Shown: positions 17,693 to 62,299 of the stretch, piece by piece
Position numbering within the stretch: position 1 is the first letter of the stretch
Layout: every line of letters starts with the position of its first letter
Assembly (NCBI GenBank): GCA_963924565.1
Contig: OZ004610.1
Span: 7,068,001 to 7,132,000 of the forward strand
DNA from: Ascidiella aspersa
Lineage: Eukaryota
Direction: 5' to 3'
DNA length: 64,000 nt
Made by a program: the position numbers and the translations under genes
The notes under the pieces: model-generated
What the model was told of the DNA's origin: nothing
The model's input: only the letters and a program-made list of their open reading frames with translations
The model's database searches: none

Positions 17693-17802
17693 GTCTAGCT
17701 GGTCTAACCAATGCCCTTCTATTTTTCAGATCGTCTACTTAATAGGTTGTTTTGTTGTTAAAACTGATACTTTGAAAGAAAAGCTATAACCGAGAAGGAA
17801 AA

Positions 17803-17844
17803 ATGTGCAGCCGACGTTCACAGCGAGCCCCGCTGAAACGCTAG
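17803..17844 (+). other. Upstream ORF (MCSRRSQRAPLKR*) in VGLL4-like 5'UTR
   Basis: aaaATG...TAG, 13 codons, between acceptor 17729 and main ATG 17900. Confidence 0.45.
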
Positions 17845-17899
17845 ACGCGCGCGCGGCGATCAAAGAAAAAGTATTAGTTATAGAAGAAGACTTATTAGG

Positions 17900-18059
17900 A
17901 TGGAATCGGCCCTCGACGTCCTCACAAAGGCGGCGCACTTCGTCGAAAATCAGCAACAAAATGGATTCGAGCAACGGCGAGCACATGCCCTACAGCAACA
18001 GCAGCAGTCGACTGGCAAACAACAGCACCCAGTCAAGGAAAATGGAGACGCCATTCCCG
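17900..18059 (+). CDS. VGLL4: VGLL4-like coding exon 1
   Basis: aggATGG start; MESALDVLTKAAHFVENQQQ...GDAIP; donor CCG|gtatgc phase 1; likely upstream acceptor atttttcag| at 17729. Confidence 0.88.
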
Positions 18060-21000
18060 GTATGCGGTTTCAAATTTTCGAATTGCTATAGCGTCCGAAC
18101 CTTCATGGGAGCAAAATTTACCTCGATTGCGATTCTAATCCGTTTAGATTTAGACGTATAAGCGGAATTCGGCTGCCGAGCCTTCCAACTTGTTGTACCC
18201 CACGCAGTTAGCCAAACAGGATTTTTTTAGTATTTTCTTTCCTCGAGTGTTACTTTTGTGTTGCGGGTCAAGGCGTTCTGTGTTAGTACGGATTTCTAGG
18301 TCACCGTATGGCACAATGTTTTTTTCTAACTTTGCGCGCATAATTTGAAACGCTAGGACAGCATTAGTAGGATTTTGGCCTTTTGCAATATTATACCCTT
18401 ATTGTTGCTACCCTTGAACAGCCCGTTAAACAGTCTGTTTGTACACTACTTATATTTACCGAAAATAAAATTCTTTTTTGAAATCTAATTCGATGGCATA
18501 TCGTATCGTACTGCTAATTAGTTTTTTTTTGTTTTGAAGGTAAAAATAATTTGTTATATTAAGCCGTGAATGCGCTGCACAAACAAAACGTGCTCTTTTG
18601 GAAAAGAAACGCCTTAATCGTTGCCAAACTTTATTACTACACTCAAGATCAGCTTTTATATCGTGCAACGTAAAAACTTAAAATAGATACAATAGGTAGT
18701 TATAGGACAGCGACAGAGAACAGTATAGATTGCATTTAGGTCCATACCGCCCTGTCATGTTATAGGTTGATCCTGCCTTAAGAAAGACAACTCTACAACG
18801 ACTGGTATTATTATTAATTGTCCACGTGACGAGCGATTGTAAACCAATCGCAGTCTTTTCAAATTTCCGGTATTTTTTCTCGGAAAGTCGAATTTAGTGC
18901 GCGCAAAAACAAATAAACTCCCCTGAACCGCAATTTACCAGTTGCTAAACCGAATTACCAATGAACTCCAAAACGTTTTGTCAACGACAGTAGCAGCAAA
19001 CAACAGATTTGATAGCTATAGAGATTGCATCACTGGTCCATTTTTGAATTTGCGCAAGGCGGGGAAATTTTGCCACCCGATTTTGCTCGAGTGGTATCCC
19101 GTGACACAAATCAGGCGTGACTACTACTTTTAAATTGATGATTCATTCGGCGCTTAGTGCAACATTTCTTTCCGGTCCCGGTTTCTACTATTTTTTCAGT
19201 CACAAGGTTATGGTGGGTTCTAAAACCCCCATAGAGCGCTGGAAGGACCCCTAAGCACCCCGCCCCCCTATCTCAACCCTTTCGTGTGACCTAAAGACCT
19301 ACCGCCGGAAATTACTCGAAACGACATTATCAAACGAACGCTTGCGTCAAAACCTTAAAATTTTGGCAGTGCTGCGAATTGGTTGCGTCACTTGGCAATC
19401 GAAGAGATTGGCACAAATTTGCGTGACTCATGATCAGTAGAATTAAGTGTGCCGTGGAAAACTCTAGGGTTGCAATTTTAATTTGCTAAAATTTCCAATA
19501 GGCCAACAACAGTCGCCACCAACTCACTTGCGACGATAATAAATCAAGTTGCATCGCAATTTCCAGCTGTCCGCACTTGGCTTTTTTTACAATAAACACG
19601 GCCGGTCTTTTGTTTACATCATGTTCACCGCGTTTCAAACGAGTGTAGACGATTTCTTAATGTTTAAAAGTGCCCGTTGGTTTTATAATTGGTTTGGGGT
19701 CGGTTACATTATTGTAAATAGTATGTAGTAGTGTAGTACATTTTATTTGATCTCCCTTTTATGTTTTTTTATACATTGGTCACCTTATATGTCCACTTCA
19801 TATTGTAAGTTTTTGCTTAATGAAAACTAATTTTCGTTCTTTACAAAACTGCTACTTTGTTTGCGCTTTTCACCCTTTCAGTCAAAACAAGAATTCAGCA
19901 AAGGTTTGACAAAAAACGCCCAAATCATGACGTTAAAATTTTGCCTTAAAAACTCCGTTGGAAATTAATTTTGATTTTACCTAAATTGTTGGTGAATTAT
20001 ACCTGATTTTTTAAAGTGTATTTCGAATTCGAACTTTTGTAATTGTGATGCTATTTGAAAAATGACAAAAATGTAGTTTAAATCGTTTTGGGAAAGAAGT
20101 ATTTCTAGTTTATCCTATACTGGTTGTTTTGTCCAAGAGTATAGGCAAGCTATTTGGTTGTAACAAGTAAAAAAACTGACAACGTAATGTCAGAAAGGAA
20201 GCGATCACCGTATACATGAAAAAAATTGGTGTTTTACATGCGCGTTCATTCAATTTATTTAACGAGTTTATCGTTAAGGACGACTACATGCATTTTGTTT
20301 AATCCGCTCTGTGTCCATTTTTCTTTAGCAGAGCGCCGAATTCTAACCGTGCTCACCCAACTGTGTAAATGTTGTTTACAACGTGACGTGGAATCGAAAT
20401 TGCATCACATGCCGTTCGGTCATCGATAATTCCGCGTCATGCTGACGGCTGCATAATTTCCCAGCACTGGGCGAGCAGCTTTTAAATTCCTCTCGACCCG
20501 CTTTGGCCAAGCTAGGCCAGCGACCAGCTTACAATATGGTTTCGATTAATAGGCAGCTGTCTTCACTTTTTATTCAACAACAGCTTTTTTTCCGTCACAT
20601 TTGCACCTTAATGGTCCCGGCTGTCTTTAGAGTTAGCATGCACACACTACTACTTTTTAATGCACTACTTCGCGCACTGGATTGTTTAGACACGCAACCC
20701 TAATGGGAATTCCTTGTAATCGACTCGCCGCCCCATCTTGACGCGGAAATGCGAATAAATTGCTTACTTGTCGGAATCGCAAATCGTTCGTTCGGTAATA
20801 AGAAAGTGCTTGGCTGTCAAACCAATTAAGGACGGCCTTATCCGCTTATGTTTTTCGCATAACTTCCAATTGAATACGGTGATGGACAGGGTTGTAACTA
20901 CATATTTCTGTACACTTCCGTCACTTGACTTAAACTTTAGTTGTTTAACTTAATGGATTTGACACATAAAAAAGTTCTTTGGAATAGTGTTTTGTTCCTT

Positions 21001-24000: not shown

Positions 24001-27000
24001 GCAATATGCCTATCCCGAAACGTTTAAGCCTCGCTTGACGCAGCAGTTCTTTAAAGTGCCTAAGTTGCCCATGGCTTACCTTGATTTTGTCCGAGTTGTA
24101 AAAGCTTGATTTTTACTTACTATCCTGTTGCACTTTAATTTACTTATCATTGTCTCAGAGTTACGTTACACGTGACTATGTGTGTGTTTAGGCGAAACGA
24201 AAAGATCGCTATTAGGGATGACCAATATTTGGCATTTTATTCTGATAACGAGACCCGATATTTTGGACTAAATCTAAAAGTATCACGATGCGATCCGATC
24301 CGATCCGATCCGATACTGAATGAATTCACTGATGTGCCCAAACAAGAAAAACAACTGAAATAAAAACCTTCAAACGGATTTTTCGGACGAGTACCGATAC
24401 TACCACATGACATCAGGTTTAGGCTCCGATCCGATATTATCGTGGCATCAGGTATCGGCTCCGATCCGATATTATTATATATTACTGGACATCTCTAATC
24501 CCTATTATTTTAATTTGAGGCAGTTTCTTAACGTTTGTATGTGATTTAGGCTGCACTGGTTTCTGAACTAAACGAAAGATGACATTACTGTTGAATGCAA
24601 AAGTTTTAATGTCTTATTTAGCTGCGAGCGATTGAATGACATTTTGGTTATTGAGTTTTGTAAGATATTTCTCTTTACCTCTACGCTAGATACACATGGA
24701 AAAGACTGTTTTATTGGGCTGGTATTTTTAAATAGAATTCATGACATTTATTCTTATTTTAAGAACCAACAAAAAATGTGCAACTTTTATGGAACGAAAC
24801 GATCGGTTGTGTTATTACACTGTTTTACTACCTTTGCTAATATTTTGTTGTTATTGCAAATGATGTGCTGCAGTCCGCCAGATGAAATATTAATTGAATT
24901 ATTTCCTTGCCTGCCTGATTCAAATAATCGATTTGTAATACCCTGTCTTCTAAGTCTTTGAACTTGTCACGTCTTAAAATTCCATGAAATGCCACAAGAA
25001 AGTGCCATTTTCGAGGGTTTACACAATACGGTAAACACACTTTCGGTTTCCAAAGGGTAAACCCTCCAAAAAAGTAGCTTATACAATATACCCTAGTCTT
25101 TAACTTGCATTAAACCATTACCACAATTTAAAAAAAAAATAAAAAAAAGCCTGGAAAACTCATTCAAAGCCCGGTTTTCTTTTCAATATCGAGGCATACC
25201 GTACATATTGTATCTCATCGTCTTATCACAACAGCAAAATCCGCGCATAGATCTTCTCGGCTCGCCGAAATAACCTTGTCCTCCAAAAACGAAATGCTCG
25301 AAGCGAGACAAACGAAAACAATTCGCGGCCAAGCGCCTCTCAGTCTGAAGAGGTCCAACCAAAGTCGAAATTTCGATTTTAAAGCTATAGGTTTTTTTCT
25401 CCACGAAGCACTTGAACGCGAATCATTCTCAGCTTTTCGGTAAATGACATGACGAGTTTAGTAGGTAGGTGAAATAACACATTTCCACATATGGCTTTGG
25501 TATTTGCCTAAACCCATTTGTTTTTCACACTAAGATGTAATGCGTTAAGTGGTATGGTCATTTAGTCATTTAAAATAAATCTCTTCATGTTTTTAATAAT
25601 AAACCTGATTCATTTATTAGCCCGCCAGTCACGAAATAGTTTCAAGTATAATATCTTAGATGTATGTTTTGCCGACGATGGCTTTTTTTGGAATTCTGCT
25701 GATCGACTTTTTGTTTACGTGCCTGCTAGTTGTTAGCTTAATTTATAACAAGGACGCCTCTGATGTGTTAACCTAAAAACAAAACATAGACCGATATATT
25801 TTACCGCTAACAACTAGCAATAGTTTCTATTGATATATCGTTATCGCTAAATTCGGGTCGACATTTTACTACATTTTTCCCTAAAGACCAACAATTTTTT
25901 AGTTTTGTTTTGCGTCATGCTAGGTTGATTTCGATTTTATTTAATTACATTGAAATTTTTACCATATCCCAGATATATGTAAATCAGGTAACGATTGGCA
26001 AAAACGTAAAAAATCGGTCATCGACATCGTTCCAAAAAGTGATAATGGTCGAATCTTTTAACAACTCCTAAATAAGTTAGCCGTGGGAAAAACTAAATCG
26101 TCCACCTAAAGGAAATATCTGTCGTTTCATATCCATCATAGCCATTCGAAGAACTGGATTCCGCCTGAGTTTTTTTCAACCATATCAATTGTGCGCTCTT
26201 GTTTTTTAGGACACAACGGTGGCGACTATGAAAGGCAGTCCAGAAGCCTGGATTCAACGAGGCTTAAGGAACGACACGCAATCCTAAAAACAACTAAAGG
26301 TAGGTGGCCGTTTTTACATAGACGAATCGTAATTTGCAAAAGCCCTTTTCATGAAAAATGATATATTGCTTTCACAACGTTAAATATTATGCGACGGAAA
26401 TCATGAAGCAGTGTTGTACACGCATTTTTTTTATGAGAAACTTGGCTCAAGCCGAGTACTAAAAGTTTTGTTAAATTGTTACCATTTTAAGCCAATCTAG
26501 AGGGCGTGGCCGCAAAAATTTTTTCGGGGGAGTACCCACGGACCCCCCAATATTTCGGCTCTCTAAACTCGCCTGCGGTCTATGTTGCTTACCAAAAAAG
26601 TCGCCGCCCTTGCCCTGAAATCGCTTCGGCGTCCCTGAGTGCAGGTTGGCAGTAAGTATCCAATTATGGCCATGGTAAGTTATTACCGCTGTTAAAGAGA
26701 AATTTCCTCCCAAAAACATTGTAGTTTTACCCGTTTTGAAACGGGAAAGAAGTATAACATGTGGTATTCTGTTGTTTGTTTGCACCCCTGTCCTACGAAT
26801 ATTTTTAAAGCCTGGATTTTATTCCCCCCCAGTTGACTGAGACTGGCGATCAAATGTCCCTTTATGGGTAATGGCTCCCTTCTAACGTTGTTTTCGTGCT
26901 TCGTGTGCGATATTTGCATGAATACGAAATAGAAAAGGAAAACAGCGCGTTTCAAGCGGCTATACATATTTAAACCAGGGTTTCCCAAACTGTGGTCCGC

Positions 27001-45000: not shown

Positions 45001-48000
45001 CAATCACAGCTTTTCTTGTCTACCTCGTTCTTCGTCGTTACGCAAAAAAGCGCTTAAATTTCTGCGCAAATCTGACAGGCACTTTGACCTTAACTGCCGC
45101 TCGACAGACCTGCTTACACAGGCTGCTCCAAAGCGAATAAAAATAAAAAAAAAAGGTTTAGGCAGATTTGGAAGCGGTCAAAGGGGGTTGGGAAAAAAGC
45201 CCAATTAAAACTTGGTAGGTAAATGTTTTAAAGATACTGGATTGCTAAAAAAAACTACCTCACTTTTACTTGGCGAGGGAGCAATCTGTTTTTAAAGCAT
45301 CCAGTCATGGACTAGTTTTAGCGGGTCCATATGAAGGCTTAATTGAAAAATATTCATATATAATTACAACAGTGGTATGAATTTTTCAAAAAAAAGTGTG
45401 GTTCAATTGAAATCAGCTTTGGTGCCATCTTCCTAGTAAATTTACTTTGACTTTATTCAAGCTTTACATTTGATATAGCAAGCAAGCAGGTTTCTTCTTC
45501 TGCTTTATAACGTCAGTTGATGGCATCCTCTCTAAACATTGCATGCCGACATTATTTCAGGCGGACAAAAAATATTTTTAGGGGGTGAGCGTTAAAAATG
45601 AACCCCCACTGTACTTACACTGTCGTGGTTGAAAAAGTACTCCAAACCTATACACGGGGGTGTAAAAATAGTTATAAAAGCTAGTTCCATGAAAATGCCG
45701 CAAACAACCACCCAGGGATCTTGTTTACGCCAGAGCATGGGCGGGCGCGCATTAGTCGACGCCGAGTTTTCAATCATAAGCTGTCAGGCCCGGGGACACT
45801 TCGTGACGCGGCCCGGCCCCCTCCCCTCTGTCACAGTTATCTCAGTCCCCAAGCGCTTCCGACCAAAGCCACAAGAGACGCCTTACCCACTTTACCCGCT
45901 CGCTTGCAAGTCACGTCTCTCCAGATAACTGTCACTCGGCTTTTTCCTGCGCACGTGACCTCACTCGCAAATCGCCTGGCTGACTGTGTCGATCTGACGG
46001 GCGAGCTACTGTGTGCTGTTTTCGGCTGGGGCGTTGGCCTAATCGCTTAGGGCGCGCGCCAACTACGATCAATAGACGTTTTGAGAAATGCAAGGGCAGC
46101 GTGCCGCCATGTCTAGAACCTATGGATTATACCAGTGTTTTTATCGCACTGAAATTTGGACTGCCGTTTGATTTGGTTTGGGTCGCCGATTGCAGTAGTT
46201 CACACGGTTGGATTTGTTGGGATTAGCTCTGAGCGAAATTTCTCAAAGAAAAAAAGAACAACGTAAAAGCAATACGAAGACATGTGAATCGTAGTAGTGA
46301 AAAAACGTATTTCGGGGCTCAGCAGAAATTTTACAGATAATGGGTGGCAGCTAGCTCTAGAATTAGTAAAAAAAATGCTTAAATGAAAACACTTTATTTT
46401 AATCCAAGTTATTTGTTCTATAAGGATTTAAGTTAAGTCGAGTCATTTGTGTAAAAAATTAACTCAAGTCAAGTAATTTTGCGCAAAAGACGTAAATCAA
46501 GTCAAGTCATTTGAAAAAAGTCACATTTACTTGGTCATTACAACACTACTGACAGAAATCGTACATGCGCGTCAATCCGTCCAGTTTCAGTTGTACTTTG
46601 CCATATCCAACTGGCGAGACCGACAAATCTCGCGCGGTCTGCCAGCATATGAATAGGGGCGTTTGTTCTAGGTTTGTCCACTGCAGCGCATTCAGCCATC
46701 TGTACTATGAATGCGGTCGACTCTCTGGACAAAGTCGTTTATCTGTAAGGTCGTCTTTACAATAGCGACTTAGGTTTTAAACAAGTGTGTTGCCATACGC
46801 CAGCTTTAGTGTGATTGTTCGAAATGGACAGTCAATCACATAAAAAGGTTTAACAATTAAACCCACAAAGCCTTGAGTCCTTTAAAGTAAAAAATTGAAA
46901 TGGTCGATTCCTGCTGTAAAGTTCTATAGAAACTCGTGTAGTAAAAAACAGGCAATCCATTACGTGGCTGTGTAGACCAGAGACTACAGGATAGGGAAAT
47001 ATGTGAAAGTCAATGTCGGGAAAGGTGCAATTCGAAATAACTTTCTGTGGTAAATAAAATGACAGAAGCTTTTTGTACATCGCCCAAGCGTTACAAAATA
47101 ATGCCGCTTTTGAGCTGGTTTTATCCCAATTCGTGCGCGTGTTCGCCGCCCTGCTCTGGTTAAGTAGCAAGTAGCGTCGGGCGTTGCACCGGCAGGCGCG
47201 GATATTCCCCGGTTATAAGTGTATTGATCGCACCGTTCTCTGGCCCGCCAACCCGTCATTTGCACCTTCAATTTCGCCCGCGCCAACTTCAGCCTTGTCA
47301 CTGCAATCTCCTCTAAGAGCCCGCCGGCTACGCGCGCCGCTCTCTTGGCTAAGCGGTTTAGCCTGGGCCCAGCCCAGTTCAGTCCTCGCCGAGGCTGCGT
47401 GCGGGCGCGCTCGCGCACATACACACACGCGCGCGAGCTTCGTGGGTGTGCCGCCGCGCTCGGGCCGTTTCCGCAGCGCCCGCCGCTGTTTACAAGCGGG
47501 GCTGTGTGTGCGGAACACACTCCTTGCGAGACCGACTCGAAAAAGCCGAGGCGGCGACTGGAGAGCAGTTCGCCCGTCGCCGCTTTTCAGCCTGCTAGCA
47601 GTCGACTAGTCGGCAGTTACTATTAGCCTTTGACGAGTTTTCGCCTTGTTTTATTTGTCAGCCAGGTATCTATTTTCAGCGTTCGGTTTTGTACAGTTTT
47701 AAAGTTCAGTTTGGGATCTCTGGATGTTGCACCTCGCTTTACAGTCAGCTGAGTTTTCTTGGCGTTGCCATCACGTTTTTTTTCCTACTGCGTTTTCTTT
47801 CCTGGATTTACTGCGGTTTTGATTACAAGTTAGCTCAGACTGGGAAACGAAGATTTGGCGCAGCCATGTCAGTTAAATTTACTCTCGGATTAGGTTGCTT
47901 GAATTTTAGTTGTTTGCTGATATATTGTTAAAGCAAAGCAAATCAAAATCGTAGCCAGGTTCAAGCGTCGAACGTACGTCTTATTACAGTTGTGTTTTAT

Positions 48001-51000
48001 CATAGTGAGCAACCGACGCAGTGTCATTTCGATGTTAAACGCTTTTTTTAAAACACCAATGCTTCTCCAGCTCGCCGTTTTAAAAAATCGCGTTTCCTAG
48101 TGTCGTGCGGCTTTCCATGGCAGTTTAGGCGGAACTGGGGTTTTGCCGGGATTTGCGCTTCGAATCCCCGCGGTTTGACGATCGATCGAGTCGATGTCGC
48201 GGCCGTTTTTGGCGGCGAGTCAAGTGCGCGCACAGGATGGAGGAATCGAGTGGACAGGTGTGTCGAGTGCTCGGCGCGCTAAGAGCGTGCGAAAATAATT
48301 CGATTTCAAGTCAAAACAAAGGCCGTCCCCTCGTCGACTCGAACCCGAGAGGCAGCGGCCTCTTGTGACGTCACACTTCGCTAATCCCCCTTCCTCCCCT
48401 CGTTGCAGCCCTCCCTGTGGGAGCATTTTTTGCGCAGGCGCGGGAAATGACAACTTCCGTGTTAGAAGGAAGCTGCTAACCTGGTCCTAGCTTTGTTTTT
48501 AGATCGGTCACACGCGCCCGGCGTCTATTGTAAAACTTAAACTCCCATTGGCGACATAATTTTATACCGACCGTGTTACATTCTCCGCGTTTTAAAATTA
48601 TTTTTTCGCCATAAAATAAACAGCATCTCGTTAGTATACTAACATCATATTTTTTTCTTGTAGTTGCACATTAACGGAACGCTTTAGTATTCGTGTTCAA
48701 GGTCATGCGCGTGATTTAAAAGGTATCTTTCGCGAAAAATCAAGTTTTGCAGTACAACTAATTTTGGTCTTACTCTAAAAAAGTATCATTTTTTTGCGGG
48801 CTTTGCGTTAAAAAATCAGCGCGAAAAAAACATCGCATTTTTAGCCCTTCCAGTCCACTTTAACCCCAACTGCACAACAAACCACCCTTTTTTTCTGCTC
48901 AAAATCCCCATAGATTGCCGACTGCTTCCCAGTCAACTGTACCAAAACAAAGTCGGGCCACCGGGGTCGTTCCAATATCTCGCGACGCGTCTTTAAAAAA
49001 CAAACGCGACCGCGCGGCCTCAGCAGCGCTAAGGGAAACAAAAGCGCGCGCGCCAAACGCCGATCTTCTGTCGCAACCACTTTAAAATTTTGCCGACGCC
49101 TTGGCTCCGGGAAATTCTAGGTCGTGGGGCGCGAATTGAAACCCGAAGCCTGGCTGCCTTGCGATTTTCCGGCCGTTTTCAGACGCCCTTGTCGCCGTTT
49201 AAGTGACTGGGCGAGGGTTTAGTTTAATGGACAACCCGATTGCCTGCGATTTTCGCAGGATAGATGCGTGTTAAGAGGTTTTATCTTGTTGGATGATTAA
49301 AACTGCTGTTTAGCAAAATGACGCTTAAAAATGTGAAGCTAATGTAGCGGTATTTTTGAAGCACATTCTTTAAATTGCCAACTCGTGTTGTTTGATGCAC
49401 ATATCGCCCAATGTAAAGTTACAAAAACCCTTAAAAGTGCAGCATCTCATTTCCTATTTTATGTCATCCGTTAAATCGAAATCGCGAAACCGTCTTCCAG
49501 CAACAACTAACTTGATCAGCCTTCGGTTAACCACGCTCTGATAAACGCTGAAGCATACAGTTGTAATGCTTTTGGTGTCGTCGTTATGCTTGTTGTTTAG
49601 TTTTGCGAAAAGTTTAGGATTTTTTGCTGCGACGTTTTTTGCAAATCACGTTACCACTTTCGGGAGCCGTTGAGAAAGGTCAAAAACAACATCTGGCCGT
49701 CGCACGACTCCTGTCAAATTCCGCCGCCTATCGATCCTTAAGGCGCCGCCGTGTTGCAAAAACCACGAACATGCCGGGCCAGTTGTTTAGTTCGCGTGGC
49801 CCTATACTTCAAAAGAGCCGAATACACGCGACGTAAATGCAAAAATGTTAGCACGCGTGTTTATTTTTGCGCTCAGTTGTTTCCTTTATTTGTTTGTTTG
49901 AAGTCCCATGTGTGTTTTCGCTTTCGAAATTGTTGCACTCAAGGTACGCTCTTAGAAATCTTCATTCCAATGAAAGAGAGATTGGCGCAGAATGGTTAAA
50001 GTGCAAATCTAAACTAAAATAGTGAAAGGTCAAAATGCTGCGTCCAGTTTGTGTGCAGTCGTTTGTTGGCCAGCATAGCTTAGTAATGTTACAGAAAATG
50101 CATTGCAACTACAAAGCCATTTATTTAGCTAACTTTGTTTAAGCTAGGCTTTCGTGTGAACACAGCCTTTAAAGCACGGACGTAGGGCAGCTACAGCCTA
50201 CTACAAGTTTTTATCAGTGTTTGTGTTATTATACATTAACTTTTTTGTTTACCACACTAACGAACCAAAAGCAGTTAAACTGCTTGCAATTTATGAAACG
50301 GTCTTAAATCGCGGCGAACTCTGACTTTTACCAGAAAACACCAAACAAATGCCTGAAACGCAAAACTGTTTTCGCGCAGATGATCAGGGCGCCGCCGTAT
50401 CGAGTAACAGCCACACGAAAAGCAGCAGTCAAGCCCCTCTGAACCACCACAGCCAGCAGCAGCAACAGCACCATTACCAGCAACAGCAACAACACCTCCA
50501 TCCCAGGCCAAACCCGGAAAGAATGCGTCTGAACGATCGCGTGGCCAGCGACGAAACGCTCCTGTCGATTCCTGCAAGTCACCAGCACGCCACAAACAAC
50601 AACAACGGCCTAAGTCACCACCACCCGCACCCGCGCCTTCCCCAGCAAAGACTCTACTCCGACGACCGGCAGCTCCTGGCCTCGGCCTACGGCGCCGGCG
50701 CCAGGAACCGTACCCCTGATTCGCCGCCCCTGTCGCCCGGCAAGCGGCTCCAGTCGCCCCACGCGGCCATGGACGGCGACCAGCAGCAAAGGACAATGGT
50801 CCTACCTCACCCCCTGACCTCGCTTGCGAGCGTAGCGGGCCACCCACTCACCCACATCAACCCCGCCAACCCCATGTTGCCCTTCATTCACCCAATGATG
50901 TACCCCGCCTTTGATCCCGGCCTTGCTGAAACCCTAGCGAGGCAGCAGGGGCACCTTATCGGCGGCGAGGCCGAAAAACAACAGCAAAATCCGCAGCAAC

Positions 51001-54000
51001 AGCAGCATTCGCCAGGATCGCCGGCCAACGTCGCGTCATCGAGCGCCGGTTTTCTGCCAGCTGGACTTCAAGGCTACATGTACCCGCTGGCGGCCGCCGC
51101 TAACCCGGGCTATCTGATGGGCGCGCGGCAAGCTGCGTCGGGCGCACAGCAACCCGGATTCGGCCTGGCCGACCTATCCATGTTTCTGCCGCAGCAGCTG
51201 GCCGCGTACGGCGCCGCCAACGTGCTTCAAGGCCAGCTTCCGGGCGCCCTTGGCGGTCTGAGTGAGCACGAGAAGCGGCTGTATGAGAGCCTACAGCCAG
51301 GCTTCGCCCAAACGCCGGCTCACCTCCTAGCAAACCCCTACTTCAAGAGCTTCTGCGCGCCAGGCCTGGACGCCGCCGCTGTGGCGAAGGACGCAGCAGC
51401 AGCGGCGGCCGCGGCAAGCCAGCATCTACCAGCAGCGGCTGCGAGTGGCATGCCAGCAATGCCTGGATACTCTGTCGACTTCCTGCTGAAGTACCAGGAG
51501 GCACTGAACAGCGAGGCGCTTAAAATAAAGGGGATGTCGTCCCCCCAGTCGTCCTCTTCCCCGGCGCCGCGACGCTCGATCTCCCCCGACGCCCCTAAAA
51601 AGTCGGGGCCGATTCCCGGCTACCCCCTGGCCTACTTGCCCTCGTACCTGGCTAACCCGGCCTTGAGCAAGTCGCCCGTTCCCGAGCGCAAAGCTTCTAC
51701 CCCGAACATGGCCGCGGCGCACAAGAACGGCACCGGGGGACCATCCCCTCACCAGGAACCGGCCAGGCCATCTGGGTACCCGAACAGCCACGACATAATG
51801 AATGGCGACGAGGCGCGACGAAGACTTATGGCGCTTGCTCAAAGGTATTTTTATGTTAGTATGTTACAAATAGAGTTAGCTCCACCAGGCAACATATCAA
51901 TAGATTGAAATCGCTCTTCTTGTGAAAACGAAGTATAAACCGACGTTTCGGCAGCAGATACCAGCTGACCTGATGAAGTTCTACTTTGTTTACACCATAA
52001 GGTCGATGTCTATCTATTGATATTAGCATGTTGTCTGGAGTTTGTGTAGTTCCTTATAGGACAAGTAGAAAAGCCTGGGCAGTAATGCGTAACACCGTGT
52101 TACTGTAAAAATTAAAATAAATATTAAAGTTGAAGTGAATAGGAAAAACATGGTTCGAAGCGTTCACACATTTTGTCCGGCTTAAAATCCACTAAGCTCA
52201 AGGTTTAAAATATGCGTAAATTACTTGTTATAGAGCGCTCAGTTTTGTTCTGAAAACTCATTGCTTTTACGAACTCACTTAGTTGCTTTGCTCGTTTCGC
52301 ATTTTCGTCTCGCGAACGGATAATGGCGTTTTGTGTTATAGTTTTTCCGTTGATTACACGCCGAGCAATCAGCTTGCAGTGTACAGTCGGCGTTGTAATG
52401 ACTTGAGTCAATGACTTGACTTGAATGCACTTAGGTTGAAATTAAGTGTTTTCAGTAACATTTTTCGTAAAATTGGTTTATTTATCCATATTTTTGTACA
52501 TAAAGCAATTTGCTTGCCTTCTATTGCGTTTTTGGTATTTTTTAGTTAGTGTATTGTTCATAATCGGGCGAATTTACCCAATTTTAATAGCTTAACATGC
52601 AATTTTCATGACATGGACTTGGAATTAATTATGACTGGACTGGGACGTGACTTGTTAATTGTTCAAAAATACTTACTTGGACTAGAGTTATTTTAAAATG
52701 ACTTGTTTACAACATTGAACTACAAGCAGCTGGGAGTAATTTGCAAAACGGCCAAAAACAAGTCCAGGTCATTTTACGCGCGCCGCCGCAAATAGATGAA
52801 TTGCAAGGCGCAGAACCGGGCCTTGTCAATTCCTCGAAGCTCGCAGTATGCGCGTCCTATTCGAAATCTGAGTGAAAAAGCGTAGGGTTTTGGCAACAAA
52901 CCAGCGCCGGGCGCGCGTGCAAAGCGCTGACGCAACGCCGCGCCGCCATTGTCGGTCATCAATGGCTTGCATTGTTCCGAGCCAGTTCCGGTCGACTTGG
53001 CCGGTGACAGAGCCTGTTTACGGACTTTGCGCGGCCTTCGACGAAAAAAGCAGCACTAGCGGCTTTACGCTGAAGGCCGCGGCTTTCGCGATACGGCAAC
53101 TGATTAAAGCGTGTATACGCCAGCAGCAGTAGGCATCGCGGTTCCGCGTCGGCGCGCCGGTTTTATCTCACTTCATCCTTGGGCCACTTGTTTACAGAGC
53201 GACCGTTTGGTCCTCCTGTCCTCGGGAGTAACTTTTACGTCTTGAGCAGGCCGCTGCTCGCTTCGTTGTTTTGTCGCGCTTCGAAAGCTTGTTGTTTCGC
53301 CGCCCGCGCCCTGTTTTGACAAGGTCCTTTTGTGGATTGCCAAGGCGGAATTCGCGCAGAATGCCATTCTGGCATGTTGGGCCGTGGTTATTCGCGCTGC
53401 CACAGCTTTATTTTACTGAGGCGCAGCAGAATCCATGTAGGCCAGTCGTGGCAACGTGTTACATTTTCTCATCCATAACTAGCGTATTTTCACCATCCGT
53501 TTTTGATGGCTAGTTAAAACGGGCCGGTATGTTCGCAACGATTTTTTTGGCTTTACCACTACAAAAGAGCAACAGGCCATCCTTTTTCAACCACCACTTG
53601 TAATTTTCCACGACCTGGGCGGTTTAAATGGCCACTTTAAAAACGGCGTGTCTCGTTTTTTTTTTCTGTGGCGCTATTTTTGGTCGGCTAGAAAAGGGGC
53701 AGCTGGTTTTAAAACAGTCAAGCCTTGGAGAAAAAAAGTTTACTTTTTTTAAGATGGTATTATGTCGCTTTTTAAAAATCGTCAACGCTGCCTGTCCAGT
53801 GCCAAAAAAAACTTGTTGTAGTCTAAAAGACTGCCCAATTCTAACTGACTTGGGCGTGGAAAAACAAGTCGTTTAAAATTAGGAAAAAGTGTAAAATATA
53901 CCGCACATTTTAACTCGCTTAAATTAGTGTGCTGTACCTCAGCCGAAAGTAGGTCACTTTCGCCGCCACGCGTTATTGCAAGCTTCTCAGATCGTGGCCA

Positions 54001-57000: not shown

Positions 57001-60000
57001 TTGCTATGAGTAAAGCGCCTTATGCTGGCGTACAGCTTTCGCTCGCCGCCATGTACTGGATTAATGCGCGGAAGTTGTGAGTTTTGCGTACATGAGCGTA
57101 TTTTTTGCGGCGTTCAACGGCGACGGAATCTCCGCGTCGGCTTATCTCGCTCGATCATCGACGATCGGGAAATTACGCCAGCGCTAAATGTGCCCCCGGG
57201 GTATTGGCTTCGACCTTTTTCGCCCAGCCGCTTGCTGCAGCCTCCTGTACGGTCGTCGGCGTCGGGCCAGCTAACGTTTAGCGGCCGAATCGGCTTAACG
57301 CTTAAAGGACGCATCGGTCGCCTTCGTAGAAATGACGGTGAAGCTTTTTTTTGCTGGAAAAAATGTGGCACGGGTTTTCGACTGTTGACCCGGCACGTGT
57401 TGTAATAGTCTTTCTGTCCGTAGGAATAAACTCTTGCAGTTAAAATGTGTCTGTTGAAACTTAGCTTCAGATCCGAGATGTTTTTTGAATTATTTTTTTT
57501 ATGCGTTAAAACTGATCATCAACCTTCTTTACGAAATCCTGGCAAACCTTTTAGGTCTGAAATGTGTTTGCGTTTTCCAAGTGTTGCGTTTGAAGTTTAG
57601 CAGCTTAGTTATTGTAATTTCGACAAAACTTAACACATCAAATCTAAAAAAATAGTTAAATTGTCTGTTTAATGCGTTAAGAGTTAAGACCGATGGGTTT
57701 CACCATTGGCTGTTAAAATTTAGTCGATATACATATATACAGTTAAACACCACTCGTCAAAATGCTTGATTTGTGAAATTCAATTTGCTAAAATTCAACT
57801 GCACGTTTTTGTGCGAAAATAGGTCTAAACCTCGACATATAATCCCCTAAAAGTTGTTTTAATGCGTTTACACAGTGTCACCTTTTACAACGCGCAGCGC
57901 TTTCTGCACAAACATCGCTAAACAGGCGCAAATCAAAGCGCTCCTTTTTTTCATGCGCACGCTGTAGAATGGGCGCTGTGCGACGCAAAAAAGTGCAACT
58001 CGTTTGTAAGCACGGAATCCATCAAATAGCCCGCGGTTGAGTCTAGTAGCTGAACACAGCACGTTTTATTATGGAAAGAAAACCGGCGTGATTCCGGGAA
58101 GATTTCTCGGCAACCACGCAGCTGTATCAACCCGGCGTCGGCTGGGTTAACGAGCGCAGTATTTTCCAAATCGCACCGGTTTATGTGTCAAAAATCGAAC
58201 GGCGATGCGTAGTACATTTTAAACAATAATTGACTGTTGGAAAAATCAGGGAAAACGTGCGAAATTAAAAAAATTAAATTGAAAGTTCTCGTTAAAATTA
58301 GTTTTGTTTTTTCATGGCAAAATCGCGTTGGAAATTGGACCACTAGCCCCTTTTAAACTGTTAATTAAGCTGTTTATTTCAAACCATATGGTAAAACACA
58401 CCACCTTAATTTTTTCGAACATTGGCGCGTTTTGCCATCAAAGATCACGGTTAAAATAGACCACTGATGCTTTGGAAATTTTTAATTACGCCTCCCGTAA
58501 CCTTTTCGTTTGCCATTTGTCCTAATCGCGACGTTAGCCGAAATTTGTTAGAGGCTTTCGGCATGGCTTGCAAAAGCTTTTAAACAGGGCCATCGGCGCT
58601 TTGCAAAACAGGCCTGTATAGGCTGGCCAGCTTAAGCACACCCAAAAAATATATATTTAGAGATTTAAACAAGGCGGTACCACACACCACTTCCTAGCAC
58701 CTCCCTGTCTGTTTTGAGAAGTGACGACGCAGCTGTAGGTCGTTTGCTGTTTTGCTTACGCCGATTAAAAACGCCAGCCTCCCACCACGCGATACAAAGT
58801 AAAAAGTCAACCTGGAAGCATCGCGACGCGACTTTACGACTTCAGCCGTTTTTCTTCACTGTTTTGACGCTAGCGTTTCTTTGCCGTCAGAAAACAAACA
58901 CACTTTGATTGACGGCCTGGCGATTATCTTGGCGTTCTGCTGTTCGCCTTCGCCTCGACAGTCATTCCGCGCGCGTTTTCCGACCGATGACGTCAATGCC
59001 ACATTCTTTGACGTCATACCGACAACAGCGCGTTAACGTCTTGTGCTTGGCCGGTTTCTTCACTGTTCTGACGGTCAAAAGTTACTATTAGCAGTTTCTA
59101 AAAAAACTGTACCTATATTTAATATTTGATTCAAAATTGATACATTTTTCGGCCTGCTCTAGTGAAATATTAACCAACGTACTACTAATAGAAAACAATG
59201 CCGGGTTAACCAGAATAGTTATACTCATTAGATTAACGCGTTGCCTATTATAGCGCCCTTTAAACACTTCCTTGTTTGGAGGTCCGATGGTTAACATTTT
59301 ATTCCAATACCGATAACTGATATTTTGTGTAAACATGCAAAGTAATATATATCAATAGAACAACAAAGCAAACGGAAGGTGGACCCGCAAAACAAACAGA
59401 CAGTTAAAACAAAATCAGATTCTTGCGAGAGAGAGCAACATCAAAAAAATCAAAAAAAAAAAAAAAAAAAAAAAAGAGAGAGAGAGAGCAACAAGAGAGA
59501 GCAATCAACATCTGTCCGATCCGATACCAAAAGACGTCAAAACTATGCTAAAAAATCAAAATAGATGAAATCGAAACGTCCAACGGCACTCGGTCCAAGT
59601 TTTGAAGTAAAAATTTGCCGGGGGTTGACAAGTTAAAAAAAGTTGACTCAGATGTTAACCAATTGTTTTTACACTAATTTACCTTTTAAGGGAGAATTGT
59701 TGAATTAGTTTGCAAATCATGGCTGAAATTCCTGTATTAATTTCGTATGTAATCGGCACCGAAACCACCCTAGTATCGACCAAGTAGAAATACTACAACT
59801 ATTATTAATATTTACACTGACACATTACCTACACGGTCTACACCATGAACAAAAAGGTAAAAATGTTAACCTTCTGCCGATGCGCAGTTCAACTCTAGCC
59901 CTACCTCCAAGTGGCGGCACCGTCTCCCTTTGGGAGAATGGATGTCCTGAGGACTGGGCTCGAACAATACTGACACTTCAGGCATCCCCGACCTACTTTT

Positions 60001-61934
60001 TCGTCAATGGGAAGAATACGCCACTACACCTTTACACTTCTTTTACATTTACTTTCTTAACTTCAATGGTGAAAATAACGGCCCTAATAGACGTAAAAAG
60101 CGACATGCTTTATTGTTCAAATGTTTCGGCAAATGCTCATGCCATCATCAGTGATATTTGGGCCGTTATTTTCACCATTAAACTTACGAACAGATCCGTA
60201 TATAATGTTTCTTTACTTTCTTTTAGAAAAAAAAATAAAAAAAATCCATTATTTCGCAGACCTCGCAACCCGTTGGACTTGTACAGTTCACCATACAAGG
60301 GACCCCACGACCGTACCGACCGCCGCTCTCCCTCCCCCTACACGGACCGGCGCCGAGTCTCCAGGGAGCGTTCGCCCCTCCGGGGACTTCCCCAGGACAA
60401 GCCGGCCAAAAAGCGATCGCACGAAGGCTTCGGCGACATTAAGTCCCGGAGCCCGAGTCTTCAACAATCCGACGGGAATCGAAGCACCAAATCCCCGCCG
60501 ACGCACCGACGAAGCTCAAGCCCTCTTTCGCGCGGCGGACAGCGGCACAGCCAGACCGCCAACCCGTACCTGGCGCCGCCGGGCTCGAAACCGGGCCTGG
60601 GGCACGCGGAAAAAGAGGCCCAAGTGGCCCTAATGGCCCAAACGCACCCCTATCTGTTCCCCCAAGGAATTGGAAGTCTGTCCTCACCTTACGCGCTGCA
60701 GTCTTACCTGCGCCAAAGCGAAGCGTCGTCGGCCGCCGCCAAGGCGTCAGTAGCTGGCTTTGTTCCTCCCACTTATTCCACGGCGCCTGCTGCCGCAATG
60801 TACCGTGCCCCGGCCCCGACTGACGTGAGTATATATTTGTACTTTTTAAATGCCCTTGCCTCTAACCGTTTGCTGATAGTTTTTATTTACTTGCCTCCAA
60901 CAGTTTTACCTGTTTACGTTAACAGTTTAATTGTTAGATTCGATTGCCACACATTTTCCGACTTCCTGGCTTTCTCTCATTTTTCTCTGAACAAATATTT
61001 GCTTTTTTTTCTCATTTATAAAATGTCTCAAAATATTTTTGTTTTTTTCACTTAACTTCAGCCTGCATAACCTAATGGCAGTGGAACAGTAACCCAGCTA
61101 AACCGATGGTAATTTCAAAATTGTCACTTATTTCGTTTGCCACAAAGAATTAAAATTATCGCTGCAATTTTCTCGTCAATTAGTTAGAATACATGTGTCA
61201 TGAGGATAATAATATAATATATTGGCTAATAATATATATGGGATAATAATATATATTTTATAAAAAAAACAGCATGCTTTAAAAAAAACAGCAATCATGG
61301 GATAATAATATATATTTTATAATATACCTTTCATTACCGCATTGAGTTTAGATGCGAAACGTAATAATTAAGGCGACGCCCTTTGGAAAATTTAAACGAC
61401 CCACCAGGGCGTCGCAACGGACAGATTAAGAACCTAAGGCCTACAGAATTACCGCTATAACTACCTTACTTGTCCAAAACTTATTTGTTATACCTGCCTT
61501 GGTTTTACAATGGCGCCTGATCGTTTTACGAACGCCTCGGTTTTCGATAGCTCGTTTTTGAAGAATATGCCTTGTAGTTTATATTGTGAAAAAATCAGCG
61601 TGAAAGCTCAACAATTAGGTGTTTATTATGCCTGAATATTAATGTTTATAAAAATAAATGTTCATATTTTTCATATGTTTTGCTAAATATAGGTTTGCTG
61701 GATTGCTAAAACCAATGCAAGGACTATATAGGCCGACTATGAGTCGCAGCGCTACTTAACCCAACTAAACACGTGGCTTTGACGCAGGCGGCGGCCCTGG
61801 CCGAATACTCGCGTCTTACTGGAATCCACCCTTACGCAATCGCCCTGATGATGCCCCAGCAGCAGCAGCAACAGCAGCAGGCCGCCTTCCGCCAATCGGT
61901 GATTGCCCACGCTACACCCACGACCGCTCAGCAG
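17900..61934 (+). CDS. VGLL4: Vestigial-like 4 / Tgi-like TEAD co-repressor, 4 coding exons (794 codons), 3' end beyond window
   Basis: Four motifs are collinear with recalled human VGLL4: MESALDVLTKAAHFV ~ METPLDVLSRAASLV; PPLSPGKR ~ PPISPSKRK; SRERSP ~ RERSRSP; FRQSVIAHA ~ NRPSVITCA. Exon phases match (1,2,0). The TDU motifs are not in the window, so the call rests on these motifs. Confidence 0.85.
23122..23136 (+). promoter_or_regulatory. Tandem TEAD (M-CAT) site
   Basis: CATTCC-tgg-CATGCC with 3-bp spacer inside a GC-rich island (23050-23230). Confidence 0.5.
24213..24497. mobile_element. hAT (Ac-like) MITE with CCGAT repeats, 285 bp
   Basis: TIRs TAGGGATGACC / TAGAGATGTCC; TSD ATCGCTAT / ATCCCTAT (7/8); internal (CCGAT)n and duplicated CATCAGGT..GGCTCCGATCCGATATTAT. 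Confidence 0.85.
26976..28093. mobile_element. hAT MITE (outer element, ~390 bp without insert)
   Basis: TIRs CAGGGTTTCCCAAA at both ends; perfect TSD ATTTAAAC (26968-26975, 28094-28101); subterminal GGTCCG repeats. Confidence 0.92.
27083..27802. mobile_element. hAT MITE nested in the previous element, 720 bp
   Basis: TIRs CAGGGGTCGACAAC / CGGGGGTCGGCAAC; perfect TSD TTGTACAG (27075-27082, 27803-27810); subterminal GGCCC repeats. Confidence 0.92.
30785..31235. mobile_element. CAAGTCAAGT-family MITE copy (opposite orientation to 5352 copy)
   Basis: AACAAGTCATTTTG...AAGTCAAGTCAAG...CAACACTG end; left border degraded. Confidence 0.7.
33232..33400. repeat. Tandem duplication, ~85 bp unit x2
   Basis: TTTCGGGCTTTCTGTAA(A)CCTGCGAATGT..AAAAAAGGGGG..AAAT occurs twice. 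Confidence 0.85.
35440..35482 (+). CDS. Candidate alternative first coding exon of VGLL4-like gene (MDFKTSTLFQKLRK)
   Basis: caagATGG Kozak context; ends AAAG|gttttt in phase 1, compatible with the acceptor at 50334; follows a CpG island (34920-35400) with GATAAAA at 35212. The donor is weak. Confidence 0.4.
35591..35850. repeat. Tandem duplication, ~130 bp unit x2
   Basis: GCTTGTACGCCAAAGATGAATTGACTCTTGCCTTGGAATTAC identical in both units. Confidence 0.9.
37101..37133. repeat. (CCTTA)6 microsatellite
   Basis: Perfect pentamer run read directly. Confidence 0.95.
38624..38682. repeat. Tandem duplication ~31 bp x2
   Basis: TTTTTGTTTTAAAAAATCCC(T/C)CCTGCGA twice. Confidence 0.85.
39339..39514. 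promoter_or_regulatory. CRE/AP-1 cluster (candidate enhancer)
   Basis: TGACGTCA at 39339 and 39444, TGACTCA at 39508. Confidence 0.5.
41782..41895. repeat. Tandem duplication ~61 bp x2
   Basis: GTGTCC.G.TAAAAATCCACAAAT...GTCCCCATAT.TG twice. Confidence 0.75.
42323..42600. mobile_element. Old hAT-like MITE remnant (family shared with ~45290-45610)
   Basis: Begins CAGGGGTTCTTA; TTTTTCAAGAAAAGTGTTTAATTGAAAATCGCTTTGGCGCC aligns with 45381-45426. Confidence 0.55.
43805..44157. mobile_element. Palindromic (foldback) MITE with TA target duplication, Tc1/mariner-pogo type
   Basis: TA|CAGCAAC ... GTTACTG|TA; long degenerate inverted arms (AATTGAAATTGC; TTACCCACCCGA..CCCTAACCCAAATAA vs TTATTTGGGCTAGGG..TCGGTTGGGTTAA). 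Confidence 0.7.
45290..45610. mobile_element. Old hAT-like MITE remnant (family shared with 42323 copy)
   Basis: Collinear similarity to 42360-42600; ends ...CCCCCACTG. Confidence 0.5.
46370..46548. mobile_element. CAAGTCAAGT-family MITE, partial
   Basis: Repeated CAAGTCAAGT(C/A)ATTT units ending GTCATTACAACACT. Confidence 0.6.
47100..47665 (+). promoter_or_regulatory. CpG island / candidate internal promoter with non-coding first exon
   Basis: Very GC/CpG-rich block ending at donor CCAG|gtatct (47665/47666); splicing to 50335 would use the ATG at 50349. Confidence 0.4.
50335..51844 (+). CDS. VGLL4: VGLL4-like coding exon 2 (1510 nt, Q/H/P/A-rich)
   Basis: Branch/acceptor ctgacttttaccag| at 50334, phase 1 (G+AA=Glu) in frame with ORF 50349..51908; donor AAAG|gtattt phase 2; strong GC3 coding bias. 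Confidence 0.9.
51879..52040. repeat. Long hairpin with rearranged hammerhead-ribozyme core (Penelope-like relic)
   Basis: Inverted arms (CTCC..CAACATATCAATAGATTGAAATCG..GTGAAAACGAAGTATAAAC vs GTTCTACTTTGTTTACAC..CGATGTCTATCTATTGATAT..ATGTTGTCTGGAG) enclosing GACGTTTCG-GCAGC-loop-GCTGA-CCTGATGAAG. Confidence 0.6.
52388..52717. mobile_element. CAAGTCAAGT-family MITE copy
   Basis: CGGCGTTGTAATGACTTGAGTCAATG...AAAATGACTTGTTTACAACATTG, collinear with the 5352-5619 copy; TSD not retained. Confidence 0.75.
53800..56690. repeat. Dispersed direct duplication (~140 bp at 53800-53937 and 56492-56642)
   Basis: Shared AGTCTAAAAGACT..CAATTC.AAC.GAC..GGCGTGGAAAAACAAGT..AACTCGC.TA.ATTAGTGTGCTGT. The second copy is flanked by a further repeat GTGTATAAATATTTTTGTAAACTT.ACCAA.CC.GATTT (56436, 56643). 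Confidence 0.8.
54568..54582 (+). promoter_or_regulatory. Tandem TEAD (M-CAT) site
   Basis: CATTCC-agc-AATGCC with 3-bp spacer; further CATTCC at 54700 and CATTCT near 54747. Confidence 0.45.
58988..59016. promoter_or_regulatory. Double CRE with interleaved TEAD-like half sites
   Basis: TGACGTCA at 58988 and 59009 (21 bp apart, two helical turns) separated by ATGCCACATTCTT; CATTCC near 58963. Confidence 0.5.
59452..59502 (+). repeat. Poly(A) + (AG)n low-complexity tract
   Basis: Read directly. Confidence 0.85.
60260..60824 (+). CDS. VGLL4: VGLL4-like coding exon 3 (565 nt, RS/SP-rich)
   Basis: ttatttcgcag| acceptor phase 2 (AG+A=Arg), donor GAC|gtgagt phase 0; the GC-rich core of ORF 59880..61055. 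Confidence 0.9.
61788..61934 (+). CDS. VGLL4: VGLL4-like coding exon 4 (147 nt, polyQ and RQSVI motif)
   Basis: ttgacgcag| acceptor phase 0, donor CAG|gttagt; AAALAEYSRLTGIHPYAIALMMPQQQQQQQQAAFRQSVIAHATPTTAQQ. Confidence 0.85.
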
Positions 61935-61994
61935 GTTAGTATCGGGTTTTTGTGGCACGCGTAACCTTTTAGTGTGGCCCACGTTGTACTGGCG

Positions 61995-62299
61995 CAGTGT
62001 TTCGCAACCTTTTTTGGCTCGCGGCACCCTACAGAAATTACACATAGTTTGCGGCACCCTTGCTCGTATTTTTACTATGTGGTTAGCTCTAACGTTACAC
62101 TAAACGAGATTGAATCAGCACATTAAGTGTGCAACAAGGTAAGTTTTTAATTAATTGCACTTTTATCGTACACAAAAATTTAGAGGCTTACCCATAAAGC
62201 AAAAATGGGAATCCTAAAGAATTTGAAATATCTCTCGTCACCCTTGAGCGTTAAATATGGCACCCTAGAGTTCCGCGGCACCCCGGTTGAGAACCACTG
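61995..62299. mobile_element. hAT MITE, 305 bp
   Basis: TIRs CAGTGTTTCGCAACC / CAGTGGTTCTCAACC; TSD TACTGGCG / AACTGGCG (7/8); internal GGCACCC repeats. Confidence 0.88.

What the first reader, a model, noticed from the sequence alone, without database searches (positions are those of the whole stretch)
17900..61934. Greatly expanded VGLL4/Tgi acting as a multi-corepressor scaffold
794 codons precede the TDU motifs, against ~290 aa for all of human VGLL4. The conserved landmarks are separated by long Q/H/P/A-rich insertions carrying extra motifs: SID-like (17900), PPLSPGKR CDK/NLS-like (50724), eh1-like (51468), PLDLY (60270), HRRSSSP (60504), PPTY (60765), RQSVI (61890). Inference: a disordered, possibly condensate-forming hub linking TEAD to Sin3, TLE, CtBP and IRF2BP.
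Basis: partly seen in the sequence, partly recalled or inferred. Interest (0 to 1): 0.7.

Follow-up and report, generated by a model that had tools for sequence, protein, structure and literature searches.

The report
Giant conserved sea-squirt VGLL4 co-repressor
This is the sea-squirt version of VGLL4, a known brake on Hippo-pathway growth genes, but about four times longer than in vertebrates and equally long in two other sea squirts; it likely still binds TEAD and IRF2BP, while the extra Sin3, Groucho and CtBP links proposed for it are unsupported.

Summary
The gene is real and is the single VGLL4/Tgi orthologue of a phlebobranch-type ascidian. All seven cited motifs lie at the stated coordinates. 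Two TDU motifs lie 12 kb beyond the window (match to human VGLL4, PDB 4LN0, E=3e-12). The seven-exon model has 1281 aa, 990 of them before TDU1, against 205 in human. Phallusia (1191 aa, 57% identical) and Ciona (1232 aa, 43%) orthologues have the same one-chain layout but are not annotated as VGLL4.

The added sequence is not mere Q/H/P/A filler: residues 481-690 are as invariant as the TDU block (49% vs 50%), and 22 of 33 S/T-P sites are shared by all three. The multi-corepressor reading mostly fails on comparison. PLDLY (CtBP), PPTY and PPLSPGKR are not conserved; the eh1-like motif loses its consensus in Ciona; Sin3 binding is untested. RxSVI (IRF2BP), HRRSSSP, a bipartite basic cluster and a C-terminal PPPY are kept.

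Verdict: a lineage-expanded, mostly disordered, likely phospho-regulated variant of a known TEAD co-repressor. Moderate interest.

The parts
17730..18059 (+). Exon with 5' UTR and coding exon 1 (ATG 17900); conserved N-terminal amphipathic helix, residues 1-18
   Evidence: Sense RNA cover from about 17730 to 18060; first 18 aa identical in Ciona, 78% in Phallusia; helix 2-21, pLDDT about 80, in the Phallusia model
26210..26299 (+).
   Evidence: Loose ends behind 18060 in 3 RNA reads and 1 contig match 26211 onward; AG and GT flanks
50335..51844 (+). Coding exon 3 (1510 nt): Q/H-rich variable part, PPLSPGKR (50724), conserved Pro/Tyr/Met/Leu-rich region, YSVDFLLKYQ helix (51468), S-P rich region, DEARRRL helix
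   Evidence: 527-codon open frame; one spliced contig covers 50378-51842 and continues on exon 4; residues 188-480 are 61% identical to Phallusia and 43% to Ciona
60260..60824 (+). Coding exon 4 (565 nt): PLDLY (60270, not conserved), Arg/Asp/Ser-Pro mixed-charge block (60297-60380), HRRSSSP (60504, invariant), PPTY (60765, not conserved)
   Evidence: Spliced to exon 3 in contig record 5 of run X2; three-way alignment
61788..61934 (+). Coding exon 5 (147 nt): conserved helix, polyQ, RQSVI (61890) = RxSVI, predicted IRF2BP RING ligand
   Evidence: In-frame acceptor at 61787; RQSVI in Phallusia, RPPVM in Ciona; contig length fits
61935..64000 (+). Intron that runs off the window's end. Beyond it lie coding exon 6 (L001:736-1216, extended 64736-65216: PPAY, [IV]KRE, bipartite basic cluster at residues 951-981) and the last coding exon (L002:2324-3216, extended 76324-77216: TDU1 at 76341, TDU2 at 76455, invariant PPPY at 77046, stop)
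   Evidence: Splice sites and frame; both exons align with both orthologues; phmmer to human VGLL4 fragment 4ln0_C E=3.4e-12; only such locus found in the genome
47561..50334 (+). Possible second promoter or alternative 5' region inside intron 2 (inferred)
   Evidence: Run X2 contigs at depth 10-15 over 47561-50152 against 3-4 for the other listed intron pieces, and sense reads of X5 near 47600-47970; CpG-rich; invariant Met-Arg at residue 147

Best explanation
This gene encodes the ascidian VGLL4/Tgi orthologue, a 1281-residue protein predicted to be largely disordered, with two TDU motifs that likely bind TEAD in competition with YAP and an RxSVI motif that likely recruits IRF2BP to repress TEAD target genes. 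Shown: gene structure, transcription, two TDUs, one copy, equal length and colinearity in Phallusia and Ciona. From established family knowledge: TDU-TEAD and RxSVI-IRF2BP RING binding; both partners are encoded in this genome. Inferred: the many hundred added residues arose in or before the common ancestor of these three ascidians and are under selection as a regulatory scaffold. They carry many conserved Ser/Thr-Pro and basophilic sites (likely phosphorylation control of localisation or stability) and several short helices for unknown partners. A conserved C-terminal PPPY would let the protein bind WW domains such as YAP's directly, as fly Tgi does. Odds: identity 0.97; TEAD plus IRF2BP co-repression 0.8; added region as phospho-regulated scaffold 0.5.
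For: TDU pair matches 4ln0_C; one locus in the genome, apart from two single-TDU Vg-type loci. Orthologues of 1191 and 1232 aa hold the N-terminus and both TDUs in one chain. RNA junctions exon1-exon2 and exon3-exon4. IRF2BP gene with a RING matching the RxSVI-binding human RING (8ytf_A, E=8.9e-36); TEAD present. Three-way invariance 49% at residues 481-690 and 36% at 188-480, against 50% in the TDU block and 7% at 19-187; 22 of 33 S/T-P sites and 5 of 7 RxxS/T-P sites shared; RxxS/T-P enriched in each protein (p 0.003-0.013). AlphaFold2 on the Phallusia protein: 957 of 1191 residues with pLDDT under 50, only isolated helices. Motif functions: 10.1101/847707, PMC11608337.
Against: No binding or phosphorylation data. 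The Pfam VGLL4 model is below cut-off (19.9 vs 27 bits), finds nothing in the genome and does not hit either orthologue. Ciona has RPPVM, which departs from the extended RxxVI consensus at Ile. The exon2-exon3 and exon4-5-6-7 junctions were not read directly. Only three ascidian sequences; no stolidobranch, appendicularian or amphioxus sequence was obtained, so the time of the expansion is open. FoldIndex calls residues of about 230-480 and 700-820 foldable while the AlphaFold2 run had a shallow alignment (6 rows), so hidden structure is not excluded. No baseline for ordinary divergence among these genera was computed.
Confidence: 0.62

Rival explanations
1. One reading: the protein links TEAD at once to Sin3 (N-terminal helix), TLE/Groucho (eh1-like), CtBP (PLDLY) and IRF2BP.
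For: The N-terminal helix is strongly conserved and amphipathic (96th percentile of proline-free 11-mers) and resembles Mad/REST-type Sin3 interaction helices (recalled, no call). YSxxxLL[KR]YQ is kept in all three ascidians and modelled as a helix. Sin3 is in the genome. Fly Tgi binds CtBP through PIDMS.
Against: PLDL is not shared in position by all three proteins and has chance-level frequency; no PIDMS-like motif in any of the three. The third eh1 position is Ala in Ciona. Tgi purifications gave four high-confidence partners, none of them Sin3A or Groucho. Among 13 papers holding both VGLL4 and SIN3A none is titled on such an interaction (listing only).
Confidence: 0.12
2. The expansion is near-neutral growth of linkers between family motifs and has no function of its own.
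For: Residues 19-187 are only 7% invariant, with polyQ and His runs particular to this species; several cited motifs are species-specific; VGLL4-family length varies anyway (Atlas representatives of 272, 468 and 634 aa).
Against: About 500 residues (188-690) are 36-49% invariant across three genera, up to the level of the TDU block, and total length is held at 1190-1280 aa.
Confidence: 0.1
3. The added region gives a second activity, for instance a transactivation or low-complexity assembly domain, or an RS-like speckle or RNA-processing role, so the long form is not chiefly a repressor.
For: Pro/Tyr/Met/Gln-rich stretches and a strongly conserved Arg/Asp/Ser-Pro block; about 40 Tyr and 80 Arg in each protein; Xenopus vgll4 induces pax3 even with both TDUs mutated (PMC12922143).
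Against: RxSVI-type motif and both TDUs are retained; Atlas look-alikes of the inserted region score only 0.75-0.79, lead level; no RNA-binding family was found.
Confidence: 0.13
4. The model joins two genes or is a prediction artefact.
For: Introns of 8, 24, 8 and 11 kb; the exon2-exon3 junction was not read; signs of a separate transcription start in intron 2.
Against: Two independent database proteins are colinear with the whole model from the first residue to the end; RNA junctions and contig length fit.
Confidence: 0.03

Closest known systems
Vertebrate VGLL4 (PDB 4LN0 chain C; Xenopus vgll4 293 aa)
   Same: Two short TDUs, both in the last exon; RxSVI-type motif upstream of TDU1; possibly two promoters giving different N-termini (vertebrate gene: PMC12922143 section 3.1).
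   Different: 1281 aa against about 290; 990 residues before TDU1 against 205 (human TDU1 at 206-221, PMC13247214); about 250 residues from TDU2 to the end; conserved PPxY near the C-terminus (its absence from human VGLL4 is recalled, not tested); below the Pfam PF15245 cut-off.
Drosophila Tgi / SdBP
   Same: Two TDUs, conserved N-terminal region, Pits/IRF2BP motif (RPSVIT), PY motifs that bind Yki WW domains (10.1101/847707).
   Different: No conserved CtBP motif like PIDMS; much longer (nearest arthropod-dominated Atlas cluster representative is 634 aa); homology of the PPxY position with Tgi's was not tested.
Phallusia mammillata A0A6F9DX74 ('Trithorax group protein osa-like') and Ciona intestinalis LOC100175154 ('uncharacterized')
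   Same: Colinear orthologues, 57% and 43% identical, same size and motif order.
   Different: Neither is labelled VGLL4 by its source; the window's protein has more polyQ/A/P runs, PLDLY and PPTY, and lacks the second C-terminal PPxY that both others have.

Membership tests
VGLL4/Tgi subfamily | Two short tandem TDU motifs with an [ED][ED]HF core (definition in PMC12922143) | tested here: met
   IEEHF at 991 and VDDHF at 1029; E=3.4e-12 to 4ln0_C; both also in the two orthologues
VGLL4/Tgi subfamily | Distinct from single-TDU Vg/VGLL1-3 genes, single copy | tested here: met
   One locus for the TDU pair; two separate Vg_Tdu loci on another contig
VGLL4/Tgi subfamily | RxSVI motif upstream of TDU1 | tested here: met
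   RQSVI at 810, shuffle p=0.0025; same in Phallusia, RPPVM in Ciona
VGLL4/Tgi subfamily | Conserved N-terminal region shared by Tgi and VGLL4 | tested here: inconclusive
   Conserved among three ascidians; no vertebrate or fly N-terminal sequence was obtained from a tool, so the match to them is recalled
VGLL4/Tgi subfamily | Orthology by tree with other animal VGLL4 | not tested
   The family-wide search never ran; Atlas top three clusters all carry PF15245 but score 0.76-0.85, lead level
Pfam PF15245 (database criterion, not a biological definition) | Score above the gathering cut-off of 27 bits | tested here: not met
   19.9 bits for the last exon; no hit in genome search or in P0001 and P0002
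Tgi-type CtBP recruiter | Conserved PxDLS/PIDMS-like motif | tested here: not met
   PLDLY becomes PSDLY and YRDVY; no P[LIVM][DSAE][LM][STA] match in any of the three proteins
eh1-type Groucho/TLE ligand | F/Y-S-I/V-x-x-I/L-L consensus (recalled) conserved in orthologues | tested here: inconclusive
   YSVDFLL here, YSLEVLL in Phallusia, YSADYLL in Ciona: block conserved, consensus broken in Ciona
Sin3 interaction domain (SID) ligand | Amphipathic helix that binds a Sin3 PAH domain | not testable with these tools
   Helix and amphipathy predicted; no PDB match for the motif; the PAH domains of this genome's Sin3 are split by introns, so no intact domain was on hand for a complex prediction
VGLL4/Tgi subfamily | Binds TEAD and represses its targets | not testable with these tools
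   Needs binding and reporter assays; TEAD is encoded in the genome

The most novel reading that the evidence does not exclude
Ascidian VGLL4 has become a kinase-controlled switch that vertebrate VGLL4 is not known to be: the invariant HRRSSSP (fits recalled LATS HxRxxS and 14-3-3 RxxSxP patterns) and many conserved RxxSP sites put the repressor itself under Hippo-type phosphorylation, its PPPY holds YAP directly, and a second promoter makes a form without the N-terminal helix, which is a Sin3 ligand across the whole family.
Probability: 0.12. Interest if true: 0.65.

Novelty: new variant of a known kind. Interest (0 to 1): 0.33.

Why it matters
Tunicates are the closest invertebrate relatives of vertebrates and ascidians are a tractable embryo model, yet their VGLL4 is mislabelled or unlabelled in the two database records found and is missed by the Pfam model. 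A fourfold longer co-repressor with about 500 conserved extra residues and a fly-like PPxY gives a natural experiment on how TEAD default repression is tuned, and points at the family's conserved N-terminal helix, for which the papers I read name no partner. Without functional data it remains a size variant of a well-studied protein.

Tried and rejected
Pfam PF15245 search of the genome: nothing; uninformative, since the model does not reach cut-off on these proteins. Homologue search with the last exon among proteins of 521-2000 aa: none among 7982 candidates, although both orthologues lie in that range, so these searches are insensitive and the absence of other tunicate or amphioxus hits means little. 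The search of 1.84 billion representatives never ran, leaving the length survey across animals open. Acceptor at 61693 rejected: stops in all frames before the polyQ. The divergent tail of the X5 loose-end consensus is read as a likely mix of genomic and adapter letters, not a new junction (inference). No RNA holder was listed; X2 is taken as RNA from its spliced contigs. X5 depth over exon 3 was about 2 and the listed joints held none from it. Atlas search with the inserted region gave only lead-level look-alikes. PDB search with the N-terminal 24 aa: none. No complex prediction was run: TDU-TEAD and RING-RxSVI are solved pairs, and the Sin3 PAH domains are split over exons. The scan's own index gave nothing relevant. 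The original Tgi papers and the 2016 review of the vestigial-like family were not reached.
Full report
Observation. The window is G000:C4:7068001-7132000 of a 308.6-Mb genome. All seven motifs are at the cited coordinates. In 70 kb fetched downstream one + strand frame holds IEEHFRRSLG at extended position 76341 and VDDHFQMALG at 76455. These 80 residues match the human VGLL4 fragment 4ln0_C at E=3.4e-12.

Gene structure. The 9 X5 reads laid there all have the orientation expected for a + strand gene in a usual stranded library. One X2 contig of 2692 nt covers 50378-51842 and then 60258-60824, which shows that junction. Its remaining 657 nt fit exon 61788-61934 (147 nt) plus the exon at extended 64736-65216 (481 nt) plus 29 nt (arithmetic; those pieces were not listed). 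The junction 26299 to 50335 was not read directly. The seven-exon model, whose last exon is L002:2324-3216 (extended 76324-77216), is one open frame of 1281 aa with TDU1 at 991 and TDU2 at 1029. So 990 residues, not 794, precede TDU1; in human VGLL4 TDU1 is at 206-221 (PMC13247214, figure legend passage) and Xenopus vgll4 has 293 aa (PMC12922143, section 3.1).

Orthologues. Two of three protein searches found relatives: Phallusia mammillata A0A6F9DX74, 1191 aa, labelled osa-like (1 hit among 7978 candidates), and Ciona intestinalis LOC100175154, 1232 aa, uncharacterized (2 hits among 7995, one being the query). The third found none among 7982. Both proteins are colinear with the model from the first residue to the tail, at 57% (641 of 1133 aligned) and 43% (485 of 1119) identity. 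This makes it very likely that exon 1 and the TDU exon belong to one gene and places the organism among ascidians. The TDU pair has one locus in the genome; two single-TDU Vg-type loci lie elsewhere. The Pfam VGLL4 model stays under its cut-off for the last exon and does not hit the orthologues, which probably explains the labels. The top three Atlas look-alikes of P0001 are VGLL4 clusters with representatives of 634, 468 and 272 aa, at lead-level scores.

What the extra sequence is like. Three-way invariance by region of the model: residues 1-18 78%, 19-187 7%, 188-480 36%, 481-690 49%, 691-824 27%, 825-984 21%, TDU block 50%, tail 18%. Homopolymer runs make up 5% of the model and 2% of each orthologue. 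22 of 33 S/T-P sites and 5 of 7 RxxS/T-P sites are shared in position by all three, and RxxS/T-P is enriched over block shuffles in each protein (p 0.003-0.013). AlphaFold2 on the Phallusia protein (6-row alignment) gives mean pLDDT 42, 957 of 1191 residues under 50, and isolated helices at the N-terminus, the YSxxxLL block, DEARR, the stretch around RxSVI, the basic cluster and the two TDUs. FoldIndex-66% of residues unfolded but rates two hydrophobic stretches foldable. Disorder is thus supported with a caveat, and 'filler' is not. I had no baseline for ordinary divergence among these genera.

Motif by motif (unless stated). N-terminal helix: first 18 residues identical in Ciona; a conserved N-terminal region is described for Tgi and VGLL4 (10.1101/847707, passages and one results section read whole), so it is likely a family landmark; likeness to Sin3 interaction helices is recalled and untested. 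PPLSPGKR: partly kept in Phallusia, not in Ciona; RLKRK...KRE at 951-981 is kept in all three and is the better NLS candidate. YSVDFLL: block conserved, eh1 consensus (recalled) broken in Ciona. PLDLY: PSDLY and YRDVY in the orthologues, chance-level (p=0.33); fly Tgi uses PIDMS for CtBP and no such motif occurs in the three proteins. HRRSSSP: invariant, though not above chance in a single sequence (p=0.37); it fits recalled LATS, 14-3-3 and DYRK patterns. PPTY: lost in both; instead PPPY at 1226 is invariant and PP[AG]Y at 900 is shared with Phallusia. RQSVI: fits RxSVI, which binds the IRF2BP2 RING with Arg, Val and Ile critical (PMC11608337, passages); Ciona has RPPVM. This genome has a single-exon IRF2BP gene whose RING matches the crystallised one at E=8.9e-36, as well as TEAD and Sin3.

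Mechanism. Shown: structure, transcription, motifs, conservation. From family knowledge: TDUs bind TEAD against YAP, RxSVI binds IRF2BP/Pits, Tgi's PY motifs bind Yki WW domains. Inferred: the added region is a phospho-regulated scaffold with further unknown partners, and PPPY binds YAP or another WW protein. Condensates need no expansion: short human VGLL4 already drives repressive TEAD4 condensates (PMC11574045, abstract and one passage). Against the four-corepressor hub: Tgi purifications gave only Yki, Sd, CtBP and Pits with high confidence, and Pits is itself named for interacting with Sin3A, so a Sin3 link could be indirect. A possible second promoter in intron 2 (depth 10-15 over 47561-50152 in X2, sense X5 reads, CpG-rich, invariant Met-Arg at 147) would parallel the two promoters of vertebrate VGLL4; this is inference.

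Literature and novelty. Searches for VGLL4 with ascidian (3 papers, none on topic by title), vestigial-like with Ciona and VGLL4 (0), Vgll with ascidian, tunicate, Tead and Hippo (5 papers, 4 listed, none on topic) and the accession names (0) found no description of ascidian VGLL4; these were seen as listings only. The library lacks most subscription papers: the review that surveys the family across animals (reference 15 of PMC12922143) and the original Tgi papers could not be read and may mention the long ascidian protein. Figures and bioRxiv supplements with the Tgi-VGLL4 alignments were not visible. PMC13110368, PMC6378284 and PMC4701972 were seen as passages and add only background. The family-wide length survey did not run, so whether other invertebrates have equally long forms is open.

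Verdict. A real, expressed, lineage-expanded variant of a known TEAD co-repressor, conserved in three ascidian proteins and not labelled as VGLL4 in the two records found. Interest 0.33; new variant of a known kind.

Noticed in passing
window 47561-50334: Intron stretch covered by RNA-type contigs at depth 10-15 and by sense reads, next to a CpG-rich region; may be a second promoter, long first exon or outron giving a protein that starts at Met89 or the conserved Met147 and lacks the N-terminal helix.
   Followed up: partly
window 17730 and 17804-17845: RNA cover starts at an AG acceptor at 17729/17730, so an upstream exon or a spliced-leader site likely exists; a short upstream ORF starts at 17804 and stops before the main ATG.
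   Followed up: no
L002-L005, extended window 82500-105250, - strand: Five intronless ORFs of 469-482 codons in tandem; the one scanned is MFS_1 (E=4e-26). Four are close paralogues by eye. Kelch-like exons (by eye) follow near 109000.
   Followed up: partly
L018 (G000:C7:9292234-9292314) and L019 (G000:C7:9262802-9262882): Two single-TDU Vestigial-type loci 30 kb apart on opposite strands.
   Followed up: no
L017:91-2298 (G000:C8): Single-exon IRF2BP gene, 735 aa, with N-terminal zinc finger and C-terminal RING.
   Followed up: partly
L012 (G000:C7:2204398-2204523): A PAH-like domain outside the Sin3 locus, over the Pfam cut-off; gene not identified.
   Followed up: no
L002, about 470-1020 (extended 74470-75020) and L002:3215-3265: A tandem repeat in the last intron and a short 15-nt tandem repeat right after the stop codon.
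   Followed up: no
L001:997-1008 (residues 912-915): [IV]KRE, a SUMO-consensus-like site (recalled pattern), is kept in all three ascidian proteins.
   Followed up: no
window 46100-46750, 51870-52720, 59400-60250, 62000-63350: High-copy short repeats in the introns, seen as very high DNA depth and many loose ends.
   Followed up: no
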